DNA of 45,988 bases from Roseiflexus sp. (lineage in GTDB: Bacteria > Chloroflexota > Chloroflexia > Chloroflexales > Roseiflexaceae): the NCBI GenBank assembly GCA_025055265.1, contig JANWXL010000271.1, positions 1 through 45,988 on the forward strand. The letters are read 5' to 3'. The translations under genes and the position numbers were made by a program. Shown here one piece after another: positions 1 to 8,798 of this stretch. The notes under the pieces are model-generated. The model was not told where the DNA came from, did not search any database, and saw only the letters and a program-made list of their open reading frames with translations. Position 1 is the first letter of the stretch. Each line of letters opens with the position of its first letter.

Positions 1-766
1 GGGCGGTAACCAGGCTGCTGTCGATGCCGCCGGAGAGGAAGACGCCGACCGGTTGCCCGGCGGGCAGACGTGCAGCGACCGCCTGTTCGAGCAGATCGCG
101 CAAGCGCCGGGCGTATGCTTCCGCCGGAAGCGTGTCGTCCCGCTCATCCTCGCGCGGTTCCCAGAACACCTCTTCGTGGCAGGCGCCGCCTGCACACAGA
201 CGGAGACAGCGTCCCGGGAGCATTTCAGAGACGCCATCGATCAACGTTTCGCTTCCTGGAAGGTAGGCGAAGGTCAGGAAGGCGCGCACCGCGTTCAGGT
301 TGAGACGCGCATTCAAACGAGGCCAGGCGCGCAGCGCACGTAGCGACGCCGACGCCGCCCAGTGGTCGCCAGCGCGCGCATAGAAGAGCGTGCGCGTCCC
401 GACGTGATCGCGCACCAGCACCAGGTCGTCCCCATCGAGGATGGCGAGCGCGAACATGCCATCGGCAACGGCGAAGCCACGCGAGCCGCGCCGGGCATAC
501 AGGTGCAGCAGGATTGCGCCGTCGGCGCAATCGTCCGGCAGGGCGACGCCATCGCGCCTCAGCATGTCGAGAAGTTCGGTGCGATTGAACAGCGTGACGG
601 CGCCAACCGCAACCAGATGATCAGCAGAGAAGACATGCGTATGGCGCCCGTCAGGGATCGCGCCGAGCGCCGCGCGATGATTGGACGCGACCAGCATTGC
701 GCCCATTGCCGCGAGGTCGTGTTCTGCTCCATCGGCGGTCAGCGCCGCACACAACCAGCCGCTCAT
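1..766 (-). CDS. Asparagine synthetase-like protein (Ntn glutaminase-like domain plus ATP pyrophosphatase domain), truncated at the window edge
   Basis: Not in the ORF track. Translated by hand from ATG at 766, which overlaps the upstream stop as ATGA: MSGWLCAALTADG...GMFALAILDGDDLVLVRDHVGTRTLFYA...RLRDLLEQAVAARLPAGQPVGVFLSGGIDSSLVTA. SGGxDSS is the PP-loop; GMFA..D..L.RD..G...L.Y is the AsnB N-domain motif. Confidence 0.88.
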   Translation of the reverse strand, partial: MSGWLCAALTADGAEHDLAAMGAMLVASNHRAALGAIPDGRHTHVFSADHLVAVGAVTLFNRTELLDMLRRDGVALPDDCADGAILLHLYARRGSRGFAVADGMFALAILDGDDLVLVRDHVGTRTLFYARAGDHWAASASLRALRAWPRLNARLNLNAVRAFLTFAYLPGSETLIDGVSEMLPGRCLRLCAGGACHEEVFWEPREDERDDTLPAEAYARRLRDLLEQAVAARLPAGQPVGVFLSGGIDSSLVTA

Positions 767-1353
767 CCGAAGTCCCCCACATCGCCAGCGTCACCACTGT
801 CGAACGGCGAACTGTCATCACCCCAGTCGCCGTCGGACTCCGCCCCTGCTTCAGGCGGTTCGGAACTTTCCCAGTAGCTGTTACCGCTGCTGTCCCAGTC
901 CGAGCCGCCTCCCCACCCGCCGCTGTTGCCAATCTGTTGCTGTTGTTGCAGCGCTTTCTGGCGCAGCATCTCTTCCTCTTCAGGGCTCAGGTGCTCCGGC
1001 GGCAACACCAGCGAACCGAGCAGAAATCCCGCTCCCATGCTCGTCAAAATCGCGCCGACCCGTCCGCCAAAGGATGTTTGATTGACGGTCAATACCTGCC
1101 CACGATGCCAGAGGGTGCGGCCATACCCCTGCTCACGCGCATAGATGACCCGCCCGTGGTTGAACGTGCGTTTGATGACTACGTCGCCGAGCAGTTCATC
1201 AACCCCGGCAAACCCCTGGTTGTCGCGCCACTCGACCCGACCATCCGGCAGGCGACGACGCCACTCGTACCGTCCGTCGCTGAAGGTGCGGCGGACGCTG
1301 CCATCAGCGAGCAGTTCGTCCTGATATGTTATTACATTCGGGTTCAGTGTCAC
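763..1353 (-). CDS. Hypothetical protein with two internal beta-rich repeats, a Gly-rich hydrophobic segment and an acidic G/S/D/W-rich tail
   Basis: ORF 763..1404. Start reassigned to GTG at 1353, which has AGGAG upstream and avoids overlap with the upstream stop at 1368. Coupled to the downstream gene by ATGA. Confidence 0.75.
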   Translation of the reverse strand: MTLNPNVITYQDELLADGSVRRTFSDGRYEWRRRLPDGRVEWRDNQGFAGVDELLGDVVIKRTFNHGRVIYAREQGYGRTLWHRGQVLTVNQTSFGGRVGAILTSMGAGFLLGSLVLPPEHLSPEEEEMLRQKALQQQQQIGNSGGWGGGSDWDSSGNSYWESSEPPEAGAESDGDWGDDSSPFDSGDAGDVGDFG

Positions 1354-1367
1354 AGGCTTCTCTCCTG

Positions 1368-2324
1368 TTACTCGGGCCAGCTCATGTAACCGGTGGTGCG
1401 CCATCGGCGCAGACTGGAGAACCAGGATTCGTGACGTCGCGTTGGGCGGACGACACGATGAAGGGTGCGCAGCAGCGTCACCGGGCGCAGCGCGGCGACT
1501 TCGGCGCGATAACCGGCGCGCAGCCAGGCGCGCTCGATCAGACTCAGCGACGCAGGAAGATGTTCCGCAGGCTCAGAGCGGCGTATGGCGAACAGATGGC
1601 GACGCAGCGCGTGCATCGGAGTCAATCCCAACGCGCGCACCCGGAAGCCGCGCGGCAGATCAAGCAGCGTTGCAGCATCGGCGACAAAGCGCAATCCTTC
1701 CGGGCTGGCATCGTGCAGCAGCAGAATGCGCGGGGCAGCAGCGCGCATGAGCATAGCAATCAGCGCGTCTGGCAGCGGCGACGCTTCTTCCAGCGACAGG
1801 ATTGCACAAGACATTTCCATGTGCAGAAAGTTGGCGCGCAACATCCGGGCAATGGTCGCATCCTGACAGACGAGCACATATGCCAGACCGTAGTCGTAGA
1901 GGTCTGGCTCGCGATCATCGAGCGCCACAGAGGGTGGTACGTCGTCGGGAAGCAAACCCGCCGGATCACCCCGATGTGCGCGATACTCTGCAAGCGCATT
2001 GTCAAAGGCAGTTTCCGTCACTGGCGGCGTGAGCGTGAAGGGGAGCCGTCGCACCAGAAATGGAAAGGTCATCAGCAGCGATGCGCTCATTGCTCCGATC
2101 CAGAGCGGATGCGGACGGCGCAGCGCGAGGGTCAGCGATGATCCAGCAACGGCAGTCGCCTGGCTGGCGGCGGTGAAGACGCGCGATTGCGGCAGCAGGG
2201 TTCGGCAGACCTCATAGTAGAGCTGGCGGCGGGTGTAGCGCACCCCACCCATTCCTGCGTGCGCAATGCTGCACTCCAGCGCAGCGTCGAGATTGCTGTG
2301 GCGCATTCGCGTGCCGAATAACAT
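1368..2324 (-). CDS. Membrane-associated protein with a Spo11/Topo VI-A-like TxRxLYY motif and a degenerate TOPRIM-like domain (paralog A)
   Basis: 318 aa with AAGGAG RBS. Motifs YTRRQLYY, VLVCQDATIA, LLLHDASPEG, LGLTP and GYRAEVAAL; hydrophobic segment near aa 55-90. The ORF is solid; the fold call is inference. Confidence 0.7.
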   Translation of the reverse strand: MLFGTRMRHSNLDAALECSIAHAGMGGVRYTRRQLYYEVCRTLLPQSRVFTAASQATAVAGSSLTLALRRPHPLWIGAMSASLLMTFPFLVRRLPFTLTPPVTETAFDNALAEYRAHRGDPAGLLPDDVPPSVALDDREPDLYDYGLAYVLVCQDATIARMLRANFLHMEMSCAILSLEEASPLPDALIAMLMRAAAPRILLLHDASPEGLRFVADAATLLDLPRGFRVRALGLTPMHALRRHLFAIRRSEPAEHLPASLSLIERAWLRAGYRAEVAALRPVTLLRTLHRVVRPTRRHESWFSSLRRWRTTGYMSWPE

Positions 2325-2335
2325 TACGTCACTCC

Positions 2336-3508
2336 TTATCGCTGGGGCCAGGTCATGAACCCGATGGCGCGCGCCGCCGCCTGCGCTTCCGCTTCCGGGT
2401 CAACGGCCCGCGCAGGCGTGCGTCGTTCAACGGCGACCTGCACAGGCGCCAGCCGCTCCACCGCTCTGGTCACCACATTGACCAGTCGGGCTGGCGGGAT
2501 GAAGAGCGCTGAGGTAACAAAACCCTGGCGCAGCCATTCGAGTTCCTCGTTCTCCAGGGTCAGTCCGCCTGGCATCTGCACCCGGCGCTCGAGAAGATTG
2601 ATCAGTTCTTGCGGCGTCTGCTCGCGTTTCCAGGGCAAACGTTGCTGCTTCACGTGGCGCGGACGCAACCCCAGGTCGATCACGCGGTGGTTCGGCGACA
2701 GCCCCCATTTGCCTGGCAACAGCGCGGGCAACAGACACCCGGCAACGCTGGCGTCATGGATCAGGATCAGCGGCAGACGTGGACTCTGGCGCAGCAGCGC
2801 AATAATGCGTTCATCGGCTGCGGAGAACGGTCCATCAGTGGAGATCAGCGCCAGACCCAGGCGATCCGGCAGTCCATTTGCCCGCAGGCAGTCGAGCACA
2901 TCGGCGACTGGCGAGGCGAGCACGGCGCGCACCCGCGACGGCGGCAACTGAACCTGACGCAGCGCAGCACTCTCCTGATTGGTGACCCATCCAGGCAGCA
3001 GTCCATGAACGCTTACCCAGGGGACGACGTATGTCGTCTCAAAAGACTCTATCACCGGCAACAGACGGCGGTACGGATTAGATGACTTAACCGCCCGATA
3101 ATAGAAGCCAGCCGCTATCGATCCCACAAGAGCGCCAGTGGCGAGTGCAATAACAGCCGAAAATAGAGAGCGCTCCCTTAGAATGACAGACAGCATACAC
3201 GCGAGAGTAACCAAAAAAACGAGGCCAAATATGATTGTAGCGACCACTGCCGATGGTTCGGACCATGAAAATCCCGTCTTGAATATGGACGCCAGTTCGC
3301 GCCGGAATACGAAGTGCGCCAGTTGCGCTGGTGTGTAGCGGTACGTCCCCCGATGGCTCAAACGGTCAGCGAGGCCGCGCAGCCGCAAGTCGCTCATCTT
3401 CAGCGTGTTTTCACGCGGCTCCAGGGCAAATTGCTTCTGGCACTGCGAGCACTTTTTATCGCGGCGCTCGCGGTATTTCAGTTCGACAAGGCAATGCGGG
3501 CATTTCAT
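2336..3508 (-). CDS. Zn-ribbon plus 2 TM helices plus degenerate TOPRIM-like domain (paralog B)
   Basis: 390 aa. N-terminal CPHC...CSQC; two TM helices. LILIHDASVAG, LGLRP, ELEWLRQGF and C-terminal GFMTWP match paralog A (HDASPEG, LGLTP, ERAWLRAGY, GYMSWP). Confidence 0.7.
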   Translation of the reverse strand: MKCPHCLVELKYRERRDKKCSQCQKQFALEPRENTLKMSDLRLRGLADRLSHRGTYRYTPAQLAHFVFRRELASIFKTGFSWSEPSAVVATIIFGLVFLVTLACMLSVILRERSLFSAVIALATGALVGSIAAGFYYRAVKSSNPYRRLLPVIESFETTYVVPWVSVHGLLPGWVTNQESAALRQVQLPPSRVRAVLASPVADVLDCLRANGLPDRLGLALISTDGPFSAADERIIALLRQSPRLPLILIHDASVAGCLLPALLPGKWGLSPNHRVIDLGLRPRHVKQQRLPWKREQTPQELINLLERRVQMPGGLTLENEELEWLRQGFVTSALFIPPARLVNVVTRAVERLAPVQVAVERRTPARAVDPEAEAQAAARAIGFMTWPQR

Positions 3509-4195
3509 TCAGGCGCCTCCCTCCAGCACGCCTGCGAGTCGCCGCAGCAGCATCGCCAGGCGCTCGCGTAGCGACACCTCAACGTGGACTCGATCAACCG
3601 CCATTTCCTCTTCCAGCTTTCGCAGCGCCGTCACCAGCCGCGCCGCCGCTTCATCGCCGCTGCGCGCCCGTTCTTCCGCCATTGCCGCCGTGATTGCGTA
3701 GTCGTCGTGGTCAATGCCCATGCCGGTGTTGGCGATGACCAGCGGCAGCGGATCATCGGCGCGGTTGTTGAACGAGTGCGGCATCAGCGCCGGAATGTGG
3801 AGCATTGAGCCGGGGATCAATCGCACGTGAGCGACCGCTTCGCGCTCGTGATCGTACAAGCCGCATGACGCATACCCCATGCTCAGCACAAAGTGCTCCG
3901 CGCCGTGAGCATGCGGCGTGAAGGCGCTGTGCGGGCGCACAAACCCGAGTTTATAGGTGGCGTTTGCCGGGTTCTCATCCGAGGTTTTCGCGGAACCGAT
4001 CAGATACTGCGTGTACTGCCCGCTATCAATAAACTGCAGCATGCCGGCGCAATCCTCCGCGCGCCGGGTTGGATCCAGACGGCGAATGCAATTTCTGCTC
4101 ACAGCATAGACGATTCCATCTGGGCTGAAAACATACAGGGTTGCACCGCATGGAAGGGTGGTTCTGAGGCGCTCGAGGTATCTGGCAAAATGCAT
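3509..4195 (-). CDS. Cupin-domain protein (metal-binding)
   Basis: Cupin motif 1 FTPHAHGAEHFV and motif 2 PGSMLHIPALMPHSFNN. Its stop abuts the ATG of the next gene. Confidence 0.8.
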   Translation of the reverse strand: MHFARYLERLRTTLPCGATLYVFSPDGIVYAVSRNCIRRLDPTRRAEDCAGMLQFIDSGQYTQYLIGSAKTSDENPANATYKLGFVRPHSAFTPHAHGAEHFVLSMGYASCGLYDHEREAVAHVRLIPGSMLHIPALMPHSFNNRADDPLPLVIANTGMGIDHDDYAITAAMAEERARSGDEAAARLVTALRKLEEEMAVDRVHVEVSLRERLAMLLRRLAGVLEGGA

Positions 4196-4346: not shown

Positions 4347-4634
4347 ATGCCTGTTCAGACGACCTACACGCAGGCGCGCGCTCGACTGGCGGCGCTGCTC
4401 GATGAAGTGGTCAACAACCGAGACATTGTCATTATTCAGCGTCGTGGCGGCGAGGATGTCGCTTTGATTGCCGCCGACGAACTGCAGAGCCTGCTCGAAA
4501 CAGTGCATCTGCTCCGTTCGCCAGCGAATGCAGAGCGCTTGCTCGCGGCGCTTGCACGGGCGCGGCAGCGCAGCGGAACGCCGCAATCTGTCGATGACCT
4601 GCGCCGTGAGGTAGGGCTTGCCGAGAACGAGTAA
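4347..4634 (+). CDS. yefM: Type II antitoxin, Phd/YefM family
   Basis: AGGAG then ATG at 4347. TYTQARARLAALLDEV...IIQRRG...ETVHLLRSPANAERL is the YefM signature. Confidence 0.93.
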   Translation: MPVQTTYTQARARLAALLDEVVNNRDIVIIQRRGGEDVALIAADELQSLLETVHLLRSPANAERLLAALARARQRSGTPQSVDDLRREVGLAENE

Positions 4635-4920
4635 GGATCTCCCAACACAGCGAACCCAACGGAACGCTGTGTTTCAACCAGAGTTTCGTGATGATCTGCG
4701 CTACTGGGTTGAGAAGGACAGGCGAACCGCATTGCGCATCCTGACATTGATCGAAGCCGTTATACGCGATCCTCTCACTGGTATTGGCAAGCCGGAACCC
4801 CTCAAGTATCTGGGTGCGAATGTATGGTCACGGCGAATCACGCAAGAACATCGTCTTGTATATGTCGTCAGCGACGACCGAATCGATTTTCTTCAAGCGC
4901 GCTACCACTACACTGATTGA
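4618..4920 (+). CDS. yoeB: Type II toxin, Txe/YoeB family ribosome-dependent mRNase
   Basis: GIGKPEPLKY...WSRRITQEHRLVY...ARYHY. Overlaps the yefM 3' end; exact start uncertain. Confidence 0.93.
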   Translation: MPRTSKDLPTQRTQRNAVFQPEFRDDLRYWVEKDRRTALRILTLIEAVIRDPLTGIGKPEPLKYLGANVWSRRITQEHRLVYVVSDDRIDFLQARYHYTD

Positions 4921-7098: not shown

Positions 7099-7440
7099 AT
7101 GAATGAATGGACACTTCGTCTGATCGTCGCGCTCATCTTCGCAGGCATTCTGGCATATCAGGCGCGTGCTACGGTTGATCGGCCAATGACGCGCCGCGCG
7201 TACACCCTGGGAGCAACTGCGTTTCTCGCGTTTGCGGCGCTCAATCTGGCGCTGGCGACCGGCGCTGAGTTCGGCATTATCCAGATCGTGTTAGGCTTCC
7301 TTGCCGTGGGGCTTCTGCTCTACGCCGTGGCATCACTCCTTATGGGCGCGCGCGCTGGCGAAATGCGTCGCGGACAGGAGTCGGCGGCGAAAATGATCGA
7401 AGAGTTCAAAAAGCGGAGAGAACGGCAGGAGGAAGGTTGA
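7099..7440 (+). CDS. Small membrane protein (about 3 TM), unknown function
   Basis: GGAGG RBS, ATG at 7099; three hydrophobic stretches and a charged tail. Confidence 0.75.
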   Translation: MNEWTLRLIVALIFAGILAYQARATVDRPMTRRAYTLGATAFLAFAALNLALATGAEFGIIQIVLGFLAVGLLLYAVASLLMGARAGEMRRGQESAAKMIEEFKKRRERQEEG

Positions 7441-7496
7441 ACGTAGCAGGTGAGAAGGTGAAAGGTTAGGGATTGCAGGCGGATTATCGCAGAGGA

Positions 7497-7867
7497 GCGG
7501 CGGTGCGCCCGGTGACATCGTAGGGGCGCGGCGGCGTGCCGGACGCCACCGTAGGGACGCGGCGGCGGTGCGCCCGGTGACATCGTAGGGGCGCGGCGGT
7601 GCGCCCGGTGACATCGTAGGGGCGCGGCGGCGTGCCGGATGCCATCGTAGGGACGCGGCGGCGTGCCGGATGCCATCGTAGGGGCGCGGCGCCGCTGCGC
7701 CCGACGCCACCGGAGGGGCGCGGCGGCGTGCCGGATGCCATCGTAGGGGCGCGGCGGCGCCGCGCCCGTCGCCCCGGTTGGGGGGGGGCGGGGTGGGGGT
7801 GGCCTTGGTTGGGCGGGGGGGGGGGTGTGCCGGGTGACTTCGTTGGGGCGCGGCGCCGCCGCGCCCG
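7497..7867 (+). repeat. Tandem array of 31/34-bp GTAG-type REP-like units
   Basis: CGTAGGG(G/A)CGCGGCG... units with GTAG at 7520, 7551, 7585, 7616, 7647, 7678 and 7743, and a GGAG variant at 7712. The 3' part degrades into G-runs. Confidence 0.85.
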
Positions 7868-7892
7868 CAGCGGAGACGTTGCACTGATAATT

Positions 7893-8798
7893 ATGCCATT
7901 ATTACACCAAATCACCCCCTATACCGCCTATGTTCCAGGCGCCAATAATCTTGGCGTCATCCTGACAGGCGACGGCGGCGCGATTGCGGTTGATACCGGT
8001 CTCGACAAAGATACCGGGCGCATGGTGCGGCGTGCGCTCGAGGAGGCGGGTCTTCGGTTGTGCGCGATCATCAGCACGCATCACCACGCCGACCATATCG
8101 GCGGCAATGACTATCTCGTGCGCAACCTTCCCGGTGTGGCTGTCTATGCGTCACGGCTCGAAGCGCCCTTCATCGAAAACCCGCTTCTCGAACCGGTTTA
8201 CCTGGCGCTCGGCGCCAGTCCGCCAGCCGCGCTCCGCACCAAATGGCTGATGGCAAAGGGTGTGCCGGTTCATCAGATCATCGACGGCGATACGCTGGAA
8301 ATCGCCGGGGTGACGCTGGAAATTGCGGACCTGCCAGGGCATAGTTTGGGACAGATCGGCGTGGCATTCGACGGCGTGTGCTTTGCAGCGGACGGCTTTT
8401 TTGGACCCGAGGTGCTGGCGAAGCATGGTATCCCGTATGCCCACGATGTTGCCGCGCAGATCGCGTCGCTCGAACGTCTGGCAATGCGAGACGAACGGTT
8501 TTTCCTGCCTGGTCATGGCACATTGACGCCGCGCAGCGATCTGAACGCAACGATCCAGGCAAACCGGCACGCAATTGAGCGTGCCTCGCGTGCTGTGCGT
8601 GACGCGCTCGCCGAACCCGGCGATATCCTGACTATTGCGCGTCGAGTTCAGCAGGCACTGGGACTGACGATCGCCGGATTGCCGCAGTACGCCATTTTTG
8701 TCTCGGCAGTCGCGGCGCATCTCAGCTATCTTGAGGCGCAGGGTGGTGCAACGCTGGTCATGACCAGCGAAGGCGCAGTGTGGCGTGGCGGGTCATGA
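7893..8798 (+). CDS. MBL-fold metallo-hydrolase
   Basis: VDTG, THHHADHIGG, PGHS, AADG and LPGHG motifs. Start set to ATG 7893 because the upstream in-frame part is repeat DNA. Confidence 0.9.
   Translation: MPLLHQITPYTAYVPGANNLGVILTGDGGAIAVDTGLDKDTGRMVRRALEEAGLRLCAIISTHHHADHIGGNDYLVRNLPGVAVYASRLEAPFIENPLLEPVYLALGASPPAALRTKWLMAKGVPVHQIIDGDTLEIAGVTLEIADLPGHSLGQIGVAFDGVCFAADGFFGPEVLAKHGIPYAHDVAAQIASLERLAMRDERFFLPGHGTLTPRSDLNATIQANRHAIERASRAVRDALAEPGDILTIARRVQQALGLTIAGLPQYAIFVSAVAAHLSYLEAQGGATLVMTSEGAVWRGGS

What the first reader, a model, noticed from the sequence alone, without database searches (positions are those of the whole stretch)
1..4195. Uncharacterised operon: cupin, two membrane-anchored Spo11/Topo VI-A-like proteins, a repeat protein and an Asn-synthetase-like ligase
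Seen: five co-oriented genes with junction gaps of 0, 11, 14 and -4 nt, beside a TA module. Known: Spo11/Top6A carry the catalytic Tyr in T.R.lYY, followed by a TOPRIM domain (VLVVEK..., D.DP.G, LG..P, K.E.EAL). ORF 1368-2324 shows look-alikes in the same order (YTRRQLYY, VLVCQDA, HDASPEG, LGLTP, RAEVAAL) but with a hydrophobic segment inserted. No Top6B GHKL ATPase or Wadjet JetABC partner is present in the window. Inference: a membrane-tethered Top6A/JetD-fold module coupled to an ATP-dependent amide ligase and a metal-dependent cupin, possibly a defence or modification system. I know of no described system with this composition.
Basis: partly seen in the sequence, partly recalled or inferred. 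Interest (0 to 1): 0.85.

Follow-up and report, generated by a model that had tools for sequence, protein, structure and literature searches.

The report
Disarmed topoisomerase subunits paired with ligase
This gene cluster, conserved across several bacterial phyla, encodes two relatives of the DNA-cutting subunit of topoisomerase VI that have lost key metal-binding residues, a protein ending in a fixed acidic tail, and an ATP-using ligase that likely attaches an amine to that tail, which would make it an undescribed protein-modification system.

Summary
The operon is real and widely conserved. Gene order is cupin, B, A, a beta-sheet protein, then an AsnB-like ligase; 75 of 80 relatives' loci carry the ligase and 77 the beta-sheet gene. 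A has a winged helix plus a Top6A-type TOPRIM fold (best matches Top6A, MksG, Spo11; Z 10.6-7.1).

A has Glu>Gln and DxD>DAS. B in this window has also lost the Arg and Tyr. Only B is clearly membrane-anchored.

New here: the beta-sheet protein ends in Asp-Phe-Gly in 74 of 77 loci. In a second architecture it is absent, and the TOPRIM protein itself ends in D-x-F-G beside AsnB-like genes, usually two (ligase in 74 of 79 loci). The dedicated ligase subfamily lacks the glutaminase Cys, and in two phylum samples occurred only in genomes with these proteins (10/301, 3/351).

Best reading (0.45): a membrane-associated system in which the ligase amidates the tail carboxylate, with non-cutting Top6A descendants as scaffold or sensor. 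Defence is neither supported nor excluded. No paper describing it was found in the searches run. Function is untested.

The parts
3509..4195 (-). Cupin, 228 aa; accessory (48 of 80 genome loci)
   Evidence: Weak Pfam Cupin_2/Cupin_1 here, E 1.2e-5 in a Streptomyces homolog. H95, H97, E100, H101 and H140 invariant in 18 of 18 aligned. Count.
2336..3508 (-). Protein B, 390 aa: Zn ribbon, winged helix interrupted by a two-helix membrane hairpin, degenerate Top6A-type TOPRIM, ends GFMTWP-QR
   Evidence: Profile match to the A family, probability 100, E 1e-54. 20 of 63 family members match PF21180 at E<=0.01, best 2.6e-7. Residues at Top6A positions in this copy: A61, H65, P200, D252, S254, S333.
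3440..3502 (-). Four-Cys Zn ribbon of B (C3, C6, C20, C23)
   Evidence: Invariant in alignment A2 of 63 sequences. Most rows were picked for this motif, so the invariance is partly by construction.
3110..3235 (-). Predicted transmembrane hairpin of B (residues 92-133)
   Evidence: Kyte-Doolittle 2.89 and 2.07; 43 of 50 B-type representatives have at least one such segment.
1368..2324 (-). Protein A, 318 aa: winged helix plus Top6A-type TOPRIM, no Zn ribbon, ends GYMSWPE
   Evidence: AlphaFold2 model with mean pLDDT 84. VIA top five are 1d3y Z 10.6, 2zbk 9.2, 8b7f 9.0, 2q2e 8.8 and 8uru 7.1.
2211..2234 (-). TRRQLYYE motif of A; R33 and Y37 sit at the spacing of Top6A R102/Y106
   Evidence: R in 50 of 62 and Y in 53 of 62 A-type representatives. 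Top6A numbering from PMC13040014 passages.
1443..1949 (-). TOPRIM domain of A (residues 126-294) with Q154 / H204-D205-A-S207 / E275 in place of E / DxD / E
   Evidence: Range. Register from the HMM alignment of a B-type profile to 1d3y and the A/B profile alignment. Counts: Q 42, E 8; D 49; S 41, D 7; E 55; His 61, all of 62.
763..1353 (-). Tail protein ('rep'), 196 aa: nine-strand meander beta-sheet, Gly-rich hydrophobic segment, helix, variable Gly/Asp/Ser linker, terminal DFG
   Evidence: Model; family sequences; invariant columns. No specific fold match.
766..774 (-). Codons of the terminal Asp-Phe-Gly of the tail protein
   Evidence: Sequence. DFG ends 74 of 77 homologs, SFG 1 and DSG 2 (hand count).
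2..766 (-). N-terminal 255 aa of the AsnB-like ligase (576 aa in kin); no Cys at position 2; PP-loop SGGIDS; remainder on contig C221
   Evidence: Pfam GATase_7 and Asn_synthase. Own-genome continuation. Subfamily signature NGEGGDP-x-FGGPKN.
4347..4920 (+). Adjacent divergent YefM/YoeB toxin-antitoxin pair; a neighbour, not part of the conserved core
   Evidence: yoeB lies beside the operon in G004 and G009, as a fragment in G003, and was not found in G006.

Best explanation
The operon encodes two Top6A/Spo11-derived proteins with a degenerate metal site, a beta-sheet protein ending in Asp-Phe-Gly, and an AsnB-like ligase lacking the glutaminase Cys, and it likely works as a membrane-associated protein-modification module in which the ligase would adenylate a carboxylate of that tail and couple it to an amine. 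Shown: the folds, the residue losses, the tail conservation, the switch of the tail between genes in two architectures, and the co-inheritance with one ligase subfamily. Inferred from AsnB and lasso-cyclase chemistry: ATP-dependent acyl-adenylate formation and attack by ammonia or an amine other than glutamine-derived ammonia. Inferred from neighbours: the amine is a small amine or omega-amino acid, or a protein Lys, because a LysA-like decarboxylase or an aminobutyraldehyde-dehydrogenase-like gene is often adjacent, and a second ligase (another AsnB or an ATP-grasp-like protein) would add a second step. Inferred: B anchors the complex in the membrane; A and B dimerise like Top6A without cutting DNA, hold the tail protein, and may sense DNA or another signal.
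For: (1) Type I loci: B 76, tail protein 77, AsnB-like 75 and cupin 48 of 80 (hand count). In the three loci where tail and ligase genes were missing despite flank, both were found elsewhere in the genome, 3 of 3. (2) The tail protein ends DFG in 74 of 77 after a linker of variable length and sequence. (3) Type II loci have no tail-protein hit in 79 of 79. Instead 83 of 88 complete TOPRIM ORFs end in FG, mostly D-x-F-G, and 74 of 79 loci hold an AsnB-like gene, usually two; four of the five exceptions are contigs under 2.7 kb (hand counts). P0193 fuses the TOPRIM protein, the beta-sheet domain and a DGFG end. (4) In the own-phylum sample the ligase signature occurred in 10 of 301 genomes, exactly the 10 with strong B matches; in Actinomycetota both occurred in the same 3 of 351, centre genome included. 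(5) The PP-loop is intact in 152 of 152 long ligase ORFs (of 200 HMM hits). A Met-Cys-Gly-type start was found in 1 of 152, a separate second AsnB in L072. (6) The metal set is broken: the first Glu site is E in 8 of 62 A and 14 of 50 B representatives; the second DxD Asp is D in 7 of 62 and 1 of 50. Passages of PMC7671362 and PMC11302465 state that these residues are conserved in all Topo VI-A/Spo11, Topo VIII and Mini-A except DxN in SPO11-2. (7) A more distant stand-alone clade keeps R-x-L-Y-Y in 5 of 5 and DxD in 3 of 5 aligned, has neither tail type where its end was read, and the ligase signature was not found in its 13 genomes. (8) Predicted complex of A with tail-protein residues 1-143: weak support, score 0.53, best of 3 controls 0.00, runs agreeing in at least 37% of contacts, partner pLDDT at least 73. 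The mark was reached by 116 of 157 solved complexes and 2 of 215 mismatches, but at 0.60 or under by only 18 solved ones and both mismatches. (9) Lasso cyclases are AsnB homologs predicted to adenylate a peptide Asp/Glu carboxylate for attack by an amine (PMC6784204 passages).
Against: No biochemical data exist, and the tail-ligase link rests on co-occurrence alone. A conserved terminal motif can be a docking tag rather than a substrate. The tip differs between architectures (x-D-F-G versus D-x-F-G), and two type I tails end DSG. A keeps the Arg, the Tyr, one Asp, the clasp Glu and a near-invariant His (61 of 62; 50 of 50 in B), which is more than a pure scaffold needs, and 14 of 50 B representatives have Glu and 29 Asp at the first site. 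The amine-supplying neighbours are optional: the decarboxylase is in 16 of 79 type II loci, and the dehydrogenase was read directly in only 2 Streptomyces loci. Kin genomes are not independent, so the co-occurrence counts overstate the number of events. The type II loci were ranked by similarity to FG-ended queries, which may inflate the FG count. One 16-kb type II locus (L132) has no AsnB-like gene. The complex prediction is weak and, by the tool's own calibration, more often wrong than right at this score unless likely beforehand.
Confidence: 0.45

Rival explanations
1. The tail is a reusable carrier, like LysW-type amino-group carrier proteins (recalled, not tested by a call). The ligase loads an amine substrate on the tail; the cupin, decarboxylase, dehydrogenase and second ligase tailor it; and the product is a small molecule or lipid head group released at the membrane.
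For: Acidic flexible tail with a fixed tip. Neighbours are small-molecule enzymes: a cupin in both architectures, a LysA-like decarboxylase, an aminobutyraldehyde-dehydrogenase-like gene, and a sixth gene with ATP-grasp-type leads.
Against: No conserved peptidase or release enzyme appeared among the neighbour clusters (shadow ORFs merged one large cluster, so this is not exhaustive). The tip is Gly, not the terminal Glu recalled for LysW. It does not explain why a winged helix-TOPRIM protein is the obligatory partner.
Confidence: 0.2
2. It is an anti-phage or anti-plasmid system. A and B form a membrane-tethered Top6A-like dimer that binds incoming DNA and either nicks it through a remodelled His-Asp/Tyr site or triggers the ligase to tag proteins or make a signal.
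For: The fold is shared with MksG/JetD. R33, Y37, H204, D205 and E275 are retained in A. Distribution is patchy (10 of 301; 3 of 351), B is expanded in tandem up to five copies with variable membrane segments (L138, L140), TA modules lie next to the operon in this genus, and G005 has lost the operon.
Against: No PADLOC match for 5 of 5 proteins and no PHROG match for 6 of 6. No viral contig and 2 of 72,556 plasmids, both over 470 kb. The locus lies next to metG in the kin regions read, and G005 keeps remnants of the last gene there. The canonical metal ligands are lost, B here lacks four of five further key residues, and no Top6B, JetB or JetD_C was found in the own genome.
Confidence: 0.2
3. 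The FG tail is only a docking tag that recruits the ligase to the membrane. The real substrate is an envelope polymer or lipid (a peptidoglycan, teichoic acid or exopolysaccharide carboxylate) that is amidated or aminoacylated.
For: The best NCBIfam matches include the exosortase-associated amidotransferase TIGR03108 (244-265 bits in two ligases, cut-off 817), and the decarboxylase weakly matches TIGR03099. B is membrane-anchored. Acidic C-terminal tips often act as docking motifs (recalled).
Against: All scores are far below the cut-offs. No glycosyltransferase or polymer-export gene appeared among the conserved neighbour clusters examined. The system spans monoderm and diderm phyla with different envelopes.
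Confidence: 0.15

Closest known systems
Top6A / Spo11 (type IIB topoisomerase A subunit; PF21180; PDB 1d3y, 9o0g, 8uru)
   Same: Winged helix followed by a Top6A-type TOPRIM; the R-x-x-Y-Y motif and the clasp/T2BI Glu are kept in A.
   Different: The first Glu and second DxD Asp are mostly replaced, and a His precedes the first Asp. B adds a Zn ribbon and a membrane hairpin within the winged helix. No Top6B was found. Coupled to an amide ligase.
Mini-A proteins (PMC7671362, passages and section 16 read)
   Same: About 300-aa stand-alone 5Y-CAP plus TOPRIM proteins with no B subunit nearby.
   Different: Mini-A are viral or proviral and keep E and DxDxxG in every member. This family was not found in viral contigs and is degenerate; its box reads R-x-E-[VL]-A-A rather than xWELDAL.
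Wadjet JetD / MksG (PDB 7til, 8b7f)
   Same: TOPRIM fold match: 8b7f Z 9.0, rmsd 4.3, 149 aligned; 7til Foldseek probability 0.90, E 0.07.
   Different: No JetD_C or JetB Pfam match in the own genome, no PADLOC match, and the conserved neighbours are ligases, not an SMC complex.
AsnB family and its amine-accepting offshoots (asparagine synthetase B, beta-lactam synthetase, lasso cyclase)
   Same: Ntn-type domain plus Asn_synthase domain and the PP-loop SGGxDS; PDB sequence hits 7ylz, 1jgt, 1ct9.
   Different: No N-terminal Cys; own signature GEGGDP-x-FGGPKN; below every NCBIfam cut-off (TIGR01536 246.5 of 267; lasso cyclase 124.8 of 525). The likely substrate is the end of a folded 170-400-aa protein, not a short leader-bearing precursor. 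TsrC and ScdTA (C-terminal amidation) were named by earlier finding e1-7282252 and were not checked here.
LysW / amino-group carrier proteins (recalled)
   Same: A small domain plus an acidic flexible tail with a conserved tip, next to an amide ligase.
   Different: The tip is DFG, not EDWGE; the core ligase is AsnB-like, not ATP-grasp; the body is a beta-meander or a TOPRIM protein.

Membership tests
Top6A/Spo11 | Winged helix plus Top6A-type TOPRIM fold | tested here: met
   1d3y Z 10.6, rmsd 4.0, 160 aligned; N-terminal part matches winged-helix domains at Z about 5; 20 of 63 match PF21180.
Top6A/Spo11 | Arg and catalytic Tyr (R-x-x-[YF]-Y) | tested here: met
   Met in A only (R33, Y37; 50 and 53 of 62). 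Window B has A61/H65, and R is in 24 of 50 B representatives.
Top6A/Spo11 | TOPRIM Glu plus DxDxxG | tested here: not met
   A: Q154, D205, S207. B: P200, D252, S254. Family counts; register.
Top6A/Spo11 | T2BI/clasp Glu | tested here: met
   E275 in A (55 of 62). Window B has S333, though 42 of 50 B representatives have E. Definition.
Topo VI holoenzyme | Top6B partner gene | tested here: inconclusive
   PF09239 not found in the own genome, 82.8% complete; the control rings over cut-off in 4 archaea. Not searched in relatives.
Top6A/Spo11 | Covalent DNA cleavage | not testable with these tools
   Needs biochemistry.
Mini-A | Viral or proviral location | tested here: not met
   No relative in viral contigs with A1 or A3 patterns and no PHROG; chromosomal position next to metG in kin.
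Mini-A | E plus DxDxxG and xWELDAL box | tested here: not met
   against PMC7671362.
Wadjet JetD/MksG | JetD_C profile match and JetABC neighbours | tested here: not met
   PF09983 and PF13835 not found in the own genome, while the control rings in C. glutamicum; no PADLOC match. JetA and JetC were not searched.
Glutamine-hydrolysing AsnB | PP-loop SGGxDS | tested here: met
   152 of 152 long ORFs.
Glutamine-hydrolysing AsnB | N-terminal nucleophile Cys | tested here: not met
   Window protein begins MSGWLC; an MCG-type start in 1 of 152, a separate copy.
Lasso peptide system | Lasso cyclase profile cut-off | tested here: not met
   NF033535 124.8 bits against cut-off 525 for the kin full-length ligase.
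Lasso peptide system | Leader peptidase, RRE and short precursor | tested here: inconclusive
   None among the larger neighbour clusters, but ORFs under 70-90 aa were not examined and one cluster was merged by shadow ORFs.
LysW/AmCP carrier | C-terminal EDWGE (recalled motif) | tested here: not met
   Tails end DFG or D-x-F-G.
ATP-grasp (sixth gene, outside the window) | Profile or structure match | tested here: inconclusive
   No Pfam, NCBIfam or PDB sequence hit. Atlas feature neighbours at 0.96 carry AnkG_N (94%), GSH_synth_ATP (13%) and GSP_synth (15%).

The most novel reading that the evidence does not exclude
A fourth branch of the type IIB A-subunit family has been recruited to the bacterial membrane as a DNA- or stress-sensing pseudo-topoisomerase. 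It controls an AsnB-type ligase that conjugates a Gly-terminated tag (the DFG tail protein, or the TOPRIM protein itself) to target-protein lysines or other amines: a ubiquitin/Pup-like tagging system with a new ligase chemistry, possibly used against invading DNA.
Probability: 0.12. Interest if true: 0.95.

Novelty: categorically new. Interest (0 to 1): 0.72.

Why it matters
Published surveys read here describe Top6A/Spo11, Topo VIII and Mini-A as keeping their metal ligands. This is a large family (1,135 representatives at 50% identity with E up to 0.001) that has lost them, gained a membrane anchor and is tightly co-inherited with a dedicated amide ligase. If the tail is the ligase's substrate, it is a new type of bacterial protein modification. 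It is testable with two purified proteins, or in Streptomyces, Gloeothece PCC 7822 or Roseiflexus strains that carry it. It also widens the set of bacterial relatives relevant to the origin of Spo11-type subunits.

Tried and rejected
Library scans: A and B of the window gave no informative Pfam, PADLOC, NCBIfam or PHROG match. Foldseek on A gave no E<=0.001 in PDB or BFVD; the top PDB row, POMGNT2 (TM 0.22, rmsd 9), was rejected. The A1 profile found no meaningful PDB sequence.

Tail protein: Tcp10_C/CPAP G-box appears weakly (Pfam E 0.014; Foldseek E 0.14) and the best VIA Z is 6.8 to assorted beta-sheets, so no family was assigned. An SSB-like reading of the acidic tip (recalled) was dropped because no OB-fold match was listed and the tip tracks the ligase.

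'Cluster 11', first taken for a conserved downstream gene, is an off-frame shadow of an aldehyde dehydrogenase.

The TA pair as part of the system was rejected: it varies within the genus and is not a conserved neighbour elsewhere.

Expression: one metatranscriptome holds contigs covering pieces of all five genes, but DNA carry-over cannot be excluded, so it was not used as evidence.

A count of how many single sequences keep E and DxD together, a background rate for FG-ended proteins, and a tree were not run because the script machine was lost.

Literature: term searches returned 0 papers; one search returned one fungal Spo11 paper (listing only); some searches returned papers of which none in the listings, or in the passages read, describes this system. 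Subscription journals and supplements were not searched, and supplementary tables of the topoisomerase surveys could list members.


Full report
OBSERVATION. The window starts at the end of contig C505 of a 4.0-Mb, 82.8% complete genome; the closest named relatives of protein A are Roseiflexus records at up to 88% identity. Five minus-strand genes lie at 3509-4195 (cupin), 2336-3508 (B), 1368-2324 (A), 763-1353 (tail protein) and 2-766 (AsnB-like, cut), with gaps of 0, 11, 14 and -4 nt. The ligase continues on contig C221, followed directly by a 477-aa gene. A divergent YefM/YoeB pair and metG lie upstream.

FOLD OF A AND B. A and B are paralogs (BLAST E 2e-10; profile probability 100). An AlphaFold2 model of A from a 44-row alignment has mean pLDDT 84. 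Against 48,161 solved chains the five best matches are all Top6A, MksG or Spo11 (Z 10.6, 9.2, 9.0, 8.8, 7.1; rmsd 4.0-4.9; 149-163 aligned; model residues 126-294), and residues 1-127 match winged-helix domains at Z about 5. Foldseek lists Top6A, MksG, Spo11 and JetD weakly, none at E<=0.001. At sequence level, 20 of 63 B-family members match PF21180, the Atlas neighbours carry PF21180 in 13% and 36% of members, and a B-type profile's best PDB hit is M. jannaschii Top6A (E 0.14), which fixes the motif register.

ACTIVE SITE. Top6A uses R102, Y106 and the acidic set E202/D254/D256/E342 (PMC13040014, passages). In 62 full-length A-type representatives the equivalent columns are R 50, Y 53, Q 42 (E 8), D 49, S 41 (D 7) and E 55. 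In 50 B-type representatives they are R 24, Y 41, D 29 (E 14), D 45, S 37 (D 1) and E 42. A His before the first Asp is kept in 61 of 62 and 50 of 50. These sets are 62 and 50 of the 147 new representatives, after dropping fragments, fusions and ambiguous rows. The window's A has R, Y, Q, D, S, E; its B keeps only the Asp. Surveys of type IIB proteins state that E and DxD are conserved throughout, apart from DxN in SPO11-2 (PMC7671362 and PMC11302465, passages). So A and B descend from Top6A but fail the membership test, and canonical cleavage is unlikely (inference). B has a Zn ribbon and a two-helix hydrophobic hairpin placed just after the YY helix. A's insertion is weakly hydrophobic and is short in 35 of 62 representatives.

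CONSERVATION, TYPE I. The A profile finds 1,135 representatives at 50% identity. Of 291 confirmed genome matches the best 80 were fetched, from Chloroflexota, Streptomyces, Nocardia, Prauserella, Dactylosporangium, Kitasatospora, Acidobacteriota and Verrucomicrobiota. By hand count, B is present in 76, the tail gene in 77, the ligase in 75, the cupin in 48 and the sixth gene in 8. The four lacking B have A within 400 bases of the contig start. Two of the five lacking the ligase end at a contig edge, and the other three genomes hold both the ligase and the tail gene elsewhere.

THE TAIL. The tail protein has a conserved nine-strand meander sheet, a Gly-rich hydrophobic segment, a helix and a linker of very variable length. 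It ends DFG in 74 of 77 loci, SFG in 1 and DSG in 2. Type I A and B end instead in a G-F/Y-M/L-T/S-W-P motif.

CONSERVATION, TYPE II. B-type proteins from other lineages end in D-x-F-G themselves. In 79 metagenome loci (best 80 of 307 matches) there is no tail-gene hit, 83 of 88 complete TOPRIM ORFs end in FG, and 74 loci have an AsnB-like gene, commonly one on each side. Accessory neighbours are a cupin (16 loci), a LysA-like decarboxylase (16), a roughly 207-aa unknown protein (17), a roughly 260-aa unknown protein (14) and a TrkA-domain channel (7). An annotated example lies on a Gloeothece verrucosa megaplasmid. Type II proteins often keep a GG-x-x-W motif that aligns with the type I ending and then continue into the acidic tail, and one protein fuses the TOPRIM, the beta-sheet and a DGFG end (P0193). 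The simplest reading is that the tail is a required part, carried either in cis or on a separate protein.

THE LIGASE. Among 152 long ORFs (of 200 HMM hits) the PP-loop is intact in all. 117 of the 119 in the higher-scoring group share GEGGDP and 26 of the 33 in the other share GEGGDQL; only one, an unrelated extra copy, has an MCG-type start. It scores below every NCBIfam cut-off. A 75-residue signature segment was found in 10 of 301 own-phylum genomes, the same 10 that have B matches at E<=1.5e-49, within about 5 kb on one contig in 9 and split by the contig break in ours. In Actinomycetota both searches gave the same 3 of 351 genomes, one being the centre genome. Thirteen further own-phylum genomes have weaker TOPRIM matches and no ligase signature. 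Five of these were aligned: they are membrane-anchored and lack the Zn ribbon where the start was read, and they keep R-x-L-Y-Y (5 of 5), Asp at the first site (5 of 5), DxD (3 of 5) and the clasp Glu (5 of 5); no tail gene was found in the 2 genomes searched.

MECHANISM. AsnB-family enzymes adenylate a carboxylate and pass it to a nitrogen nucleophile, and lasso cyclases do this on a peptide Asp or Glu (PMC6784204, passages; the rest is established knowledge). Without the N-terminal Cys the ligase cannot draw ammonia from glutamine and would use free ammonia or an amine (inference). The one carboxylate-rich feature that tracks it in both architectures is the FG-ended tail, so I commit to the tail as substrate (0.45). 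Optional neighbours would supply or tailor amines: the decarboxylase in type II, an aminobutyraldehyde-dehydrogenase-like gene right after the ligase in two Streptomyces loci read directly, and a cupin with invariant His/Glu. A second ligase, AsnB-like in type II or ATP-grasp-like in Roseiflexus and Chloroflexus (leads only), would add a second step. A predicted complex of A with the tail protein's folded part gave weak support: 0.53 against a best control of 0.00, with at least 37% contact agreement and partner pLDDT of at least 73; the mark was reached by 116 of 157 solved and 2 of 215 mismatched pairs, but at 0.60 or under by 18 and 2. What the Top6A descendants sense, if anything, is unknown; the retained Arg, Tyr, His-Asp and clasp Glu are unexplained by a pure scaffold.

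RIVALS. A carrier-based small-molecule pathway (0.20) shares the acylation step but lacks a conserved release enzyme. Defence (0.20) is favoured by patchy distribution, tandem B copies, adjacent TA modules in this genus and loss in G005, which keeps fragments of the sixth gene beside metG. It is disfavoured by no PADLOC or PHROG match, no viral contigs, 2 of 72,556 plasmids, and no Top6B, JetB or JetD_C in the own, incomplete genome. Envelope amidation with the tail as a docking tag is put at 0.15.

NOVELTY. The literature searches and passage reads found no description of the system; subscription journals and supplements were not covered. Two earlier AI notes from other genomes describe the type II form and agree with what was found here independently. 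The type I layout, the transfer of the tail between genes, the matched genome-level occurrence and the stand-alone clade are the additions. All parts have known folds except the tail protein, but the combination matches no known kind of system. Verdict: real, conserved, undescribed in the searches run, function untested; interest 0.72.

Noticed in passing
L194:1107-2540 (own genome, contig C221): Sixth operon gene, 477 aa, with no Pfam, NCBIfam or PDB sequence match; Atlas neighbours suggest an ATP-grasp of the glutathionylspermidine/glutathione synthetase type. Found in only 8 of 80 loci, all Roseiflexus or Chloroflexus by record title.
   Followed up: partly
L195:4826-5758, L196:5286-6128, L197:4841-5923, L198:5476-6363, L199:4912-5724: Stand-alone membrane-anchored winged helix-TOPRIM proteins, matched in 12 of 14 sampled genomes of one family of the own phylum. 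They keep the R-x-L-Y-Y motif and often DxD, with no ligase signature found; a possible less degenerate sister clade.
   Followed up: partly
L205:725-1539 (G005): A near-complete same-genus genome lacks A but keeps fragments of the sixth gene next to metG, indicating deletion of the operon.
   Followed up: partly
L022:4462-5548 (G003): A nucleotidyltransferase plus HEPN-like gene pair (recognised from the translation, not scanned) and a yoeB fragment lie between metG and the cupin; the site looks like a TA hot spot in this genus.
   Followed up: no
L138:3680-10410 and L140:2523-6416: Tandem arrays of five and four B-type genes; four of five in L138 end in DGFG. P0099 and P0138 are tandem fusions of two B units.
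   Followed up: no
L095:12315-13718 and L082:3274-4671: Aminobutyraldehyde-dehydrogenase-like gene directly after the ligase in Streptomyces (NF010000 about 405 bits, cut-off 615). Shadow ORFs overlapping it cluster across 15 to 27 loci, suggesting it is common there.
   Followed up: partly
L139:4268-4891 and L119:1078-1944: Two unnamed gene families (about 207 aa in 17 loci; about 260 aa in 14 loci) recur upstream of the second ligase in type II loci, with no significant Pfam match.
   Followed up: no
window 1368-1400 and 2336-2360: Both A and B end in a conserved G-[FY]-[ML]-[TS]-W-P motif of unknown role; a similar motif precedes the acidic tail in type II proteins.
   Followed up: partly
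window 7333-7915: A region upstream of the 7632-8798 ORF gives repetitive translations on both strands, suggesting short tandem or dispersed repeats.
   Followed up: no
L132:8001-9101: A type II gene ending DSFG on a 16-kb locus with no AsnB-like neighbour; the one clear exception to the coupling.
   Followed up: no
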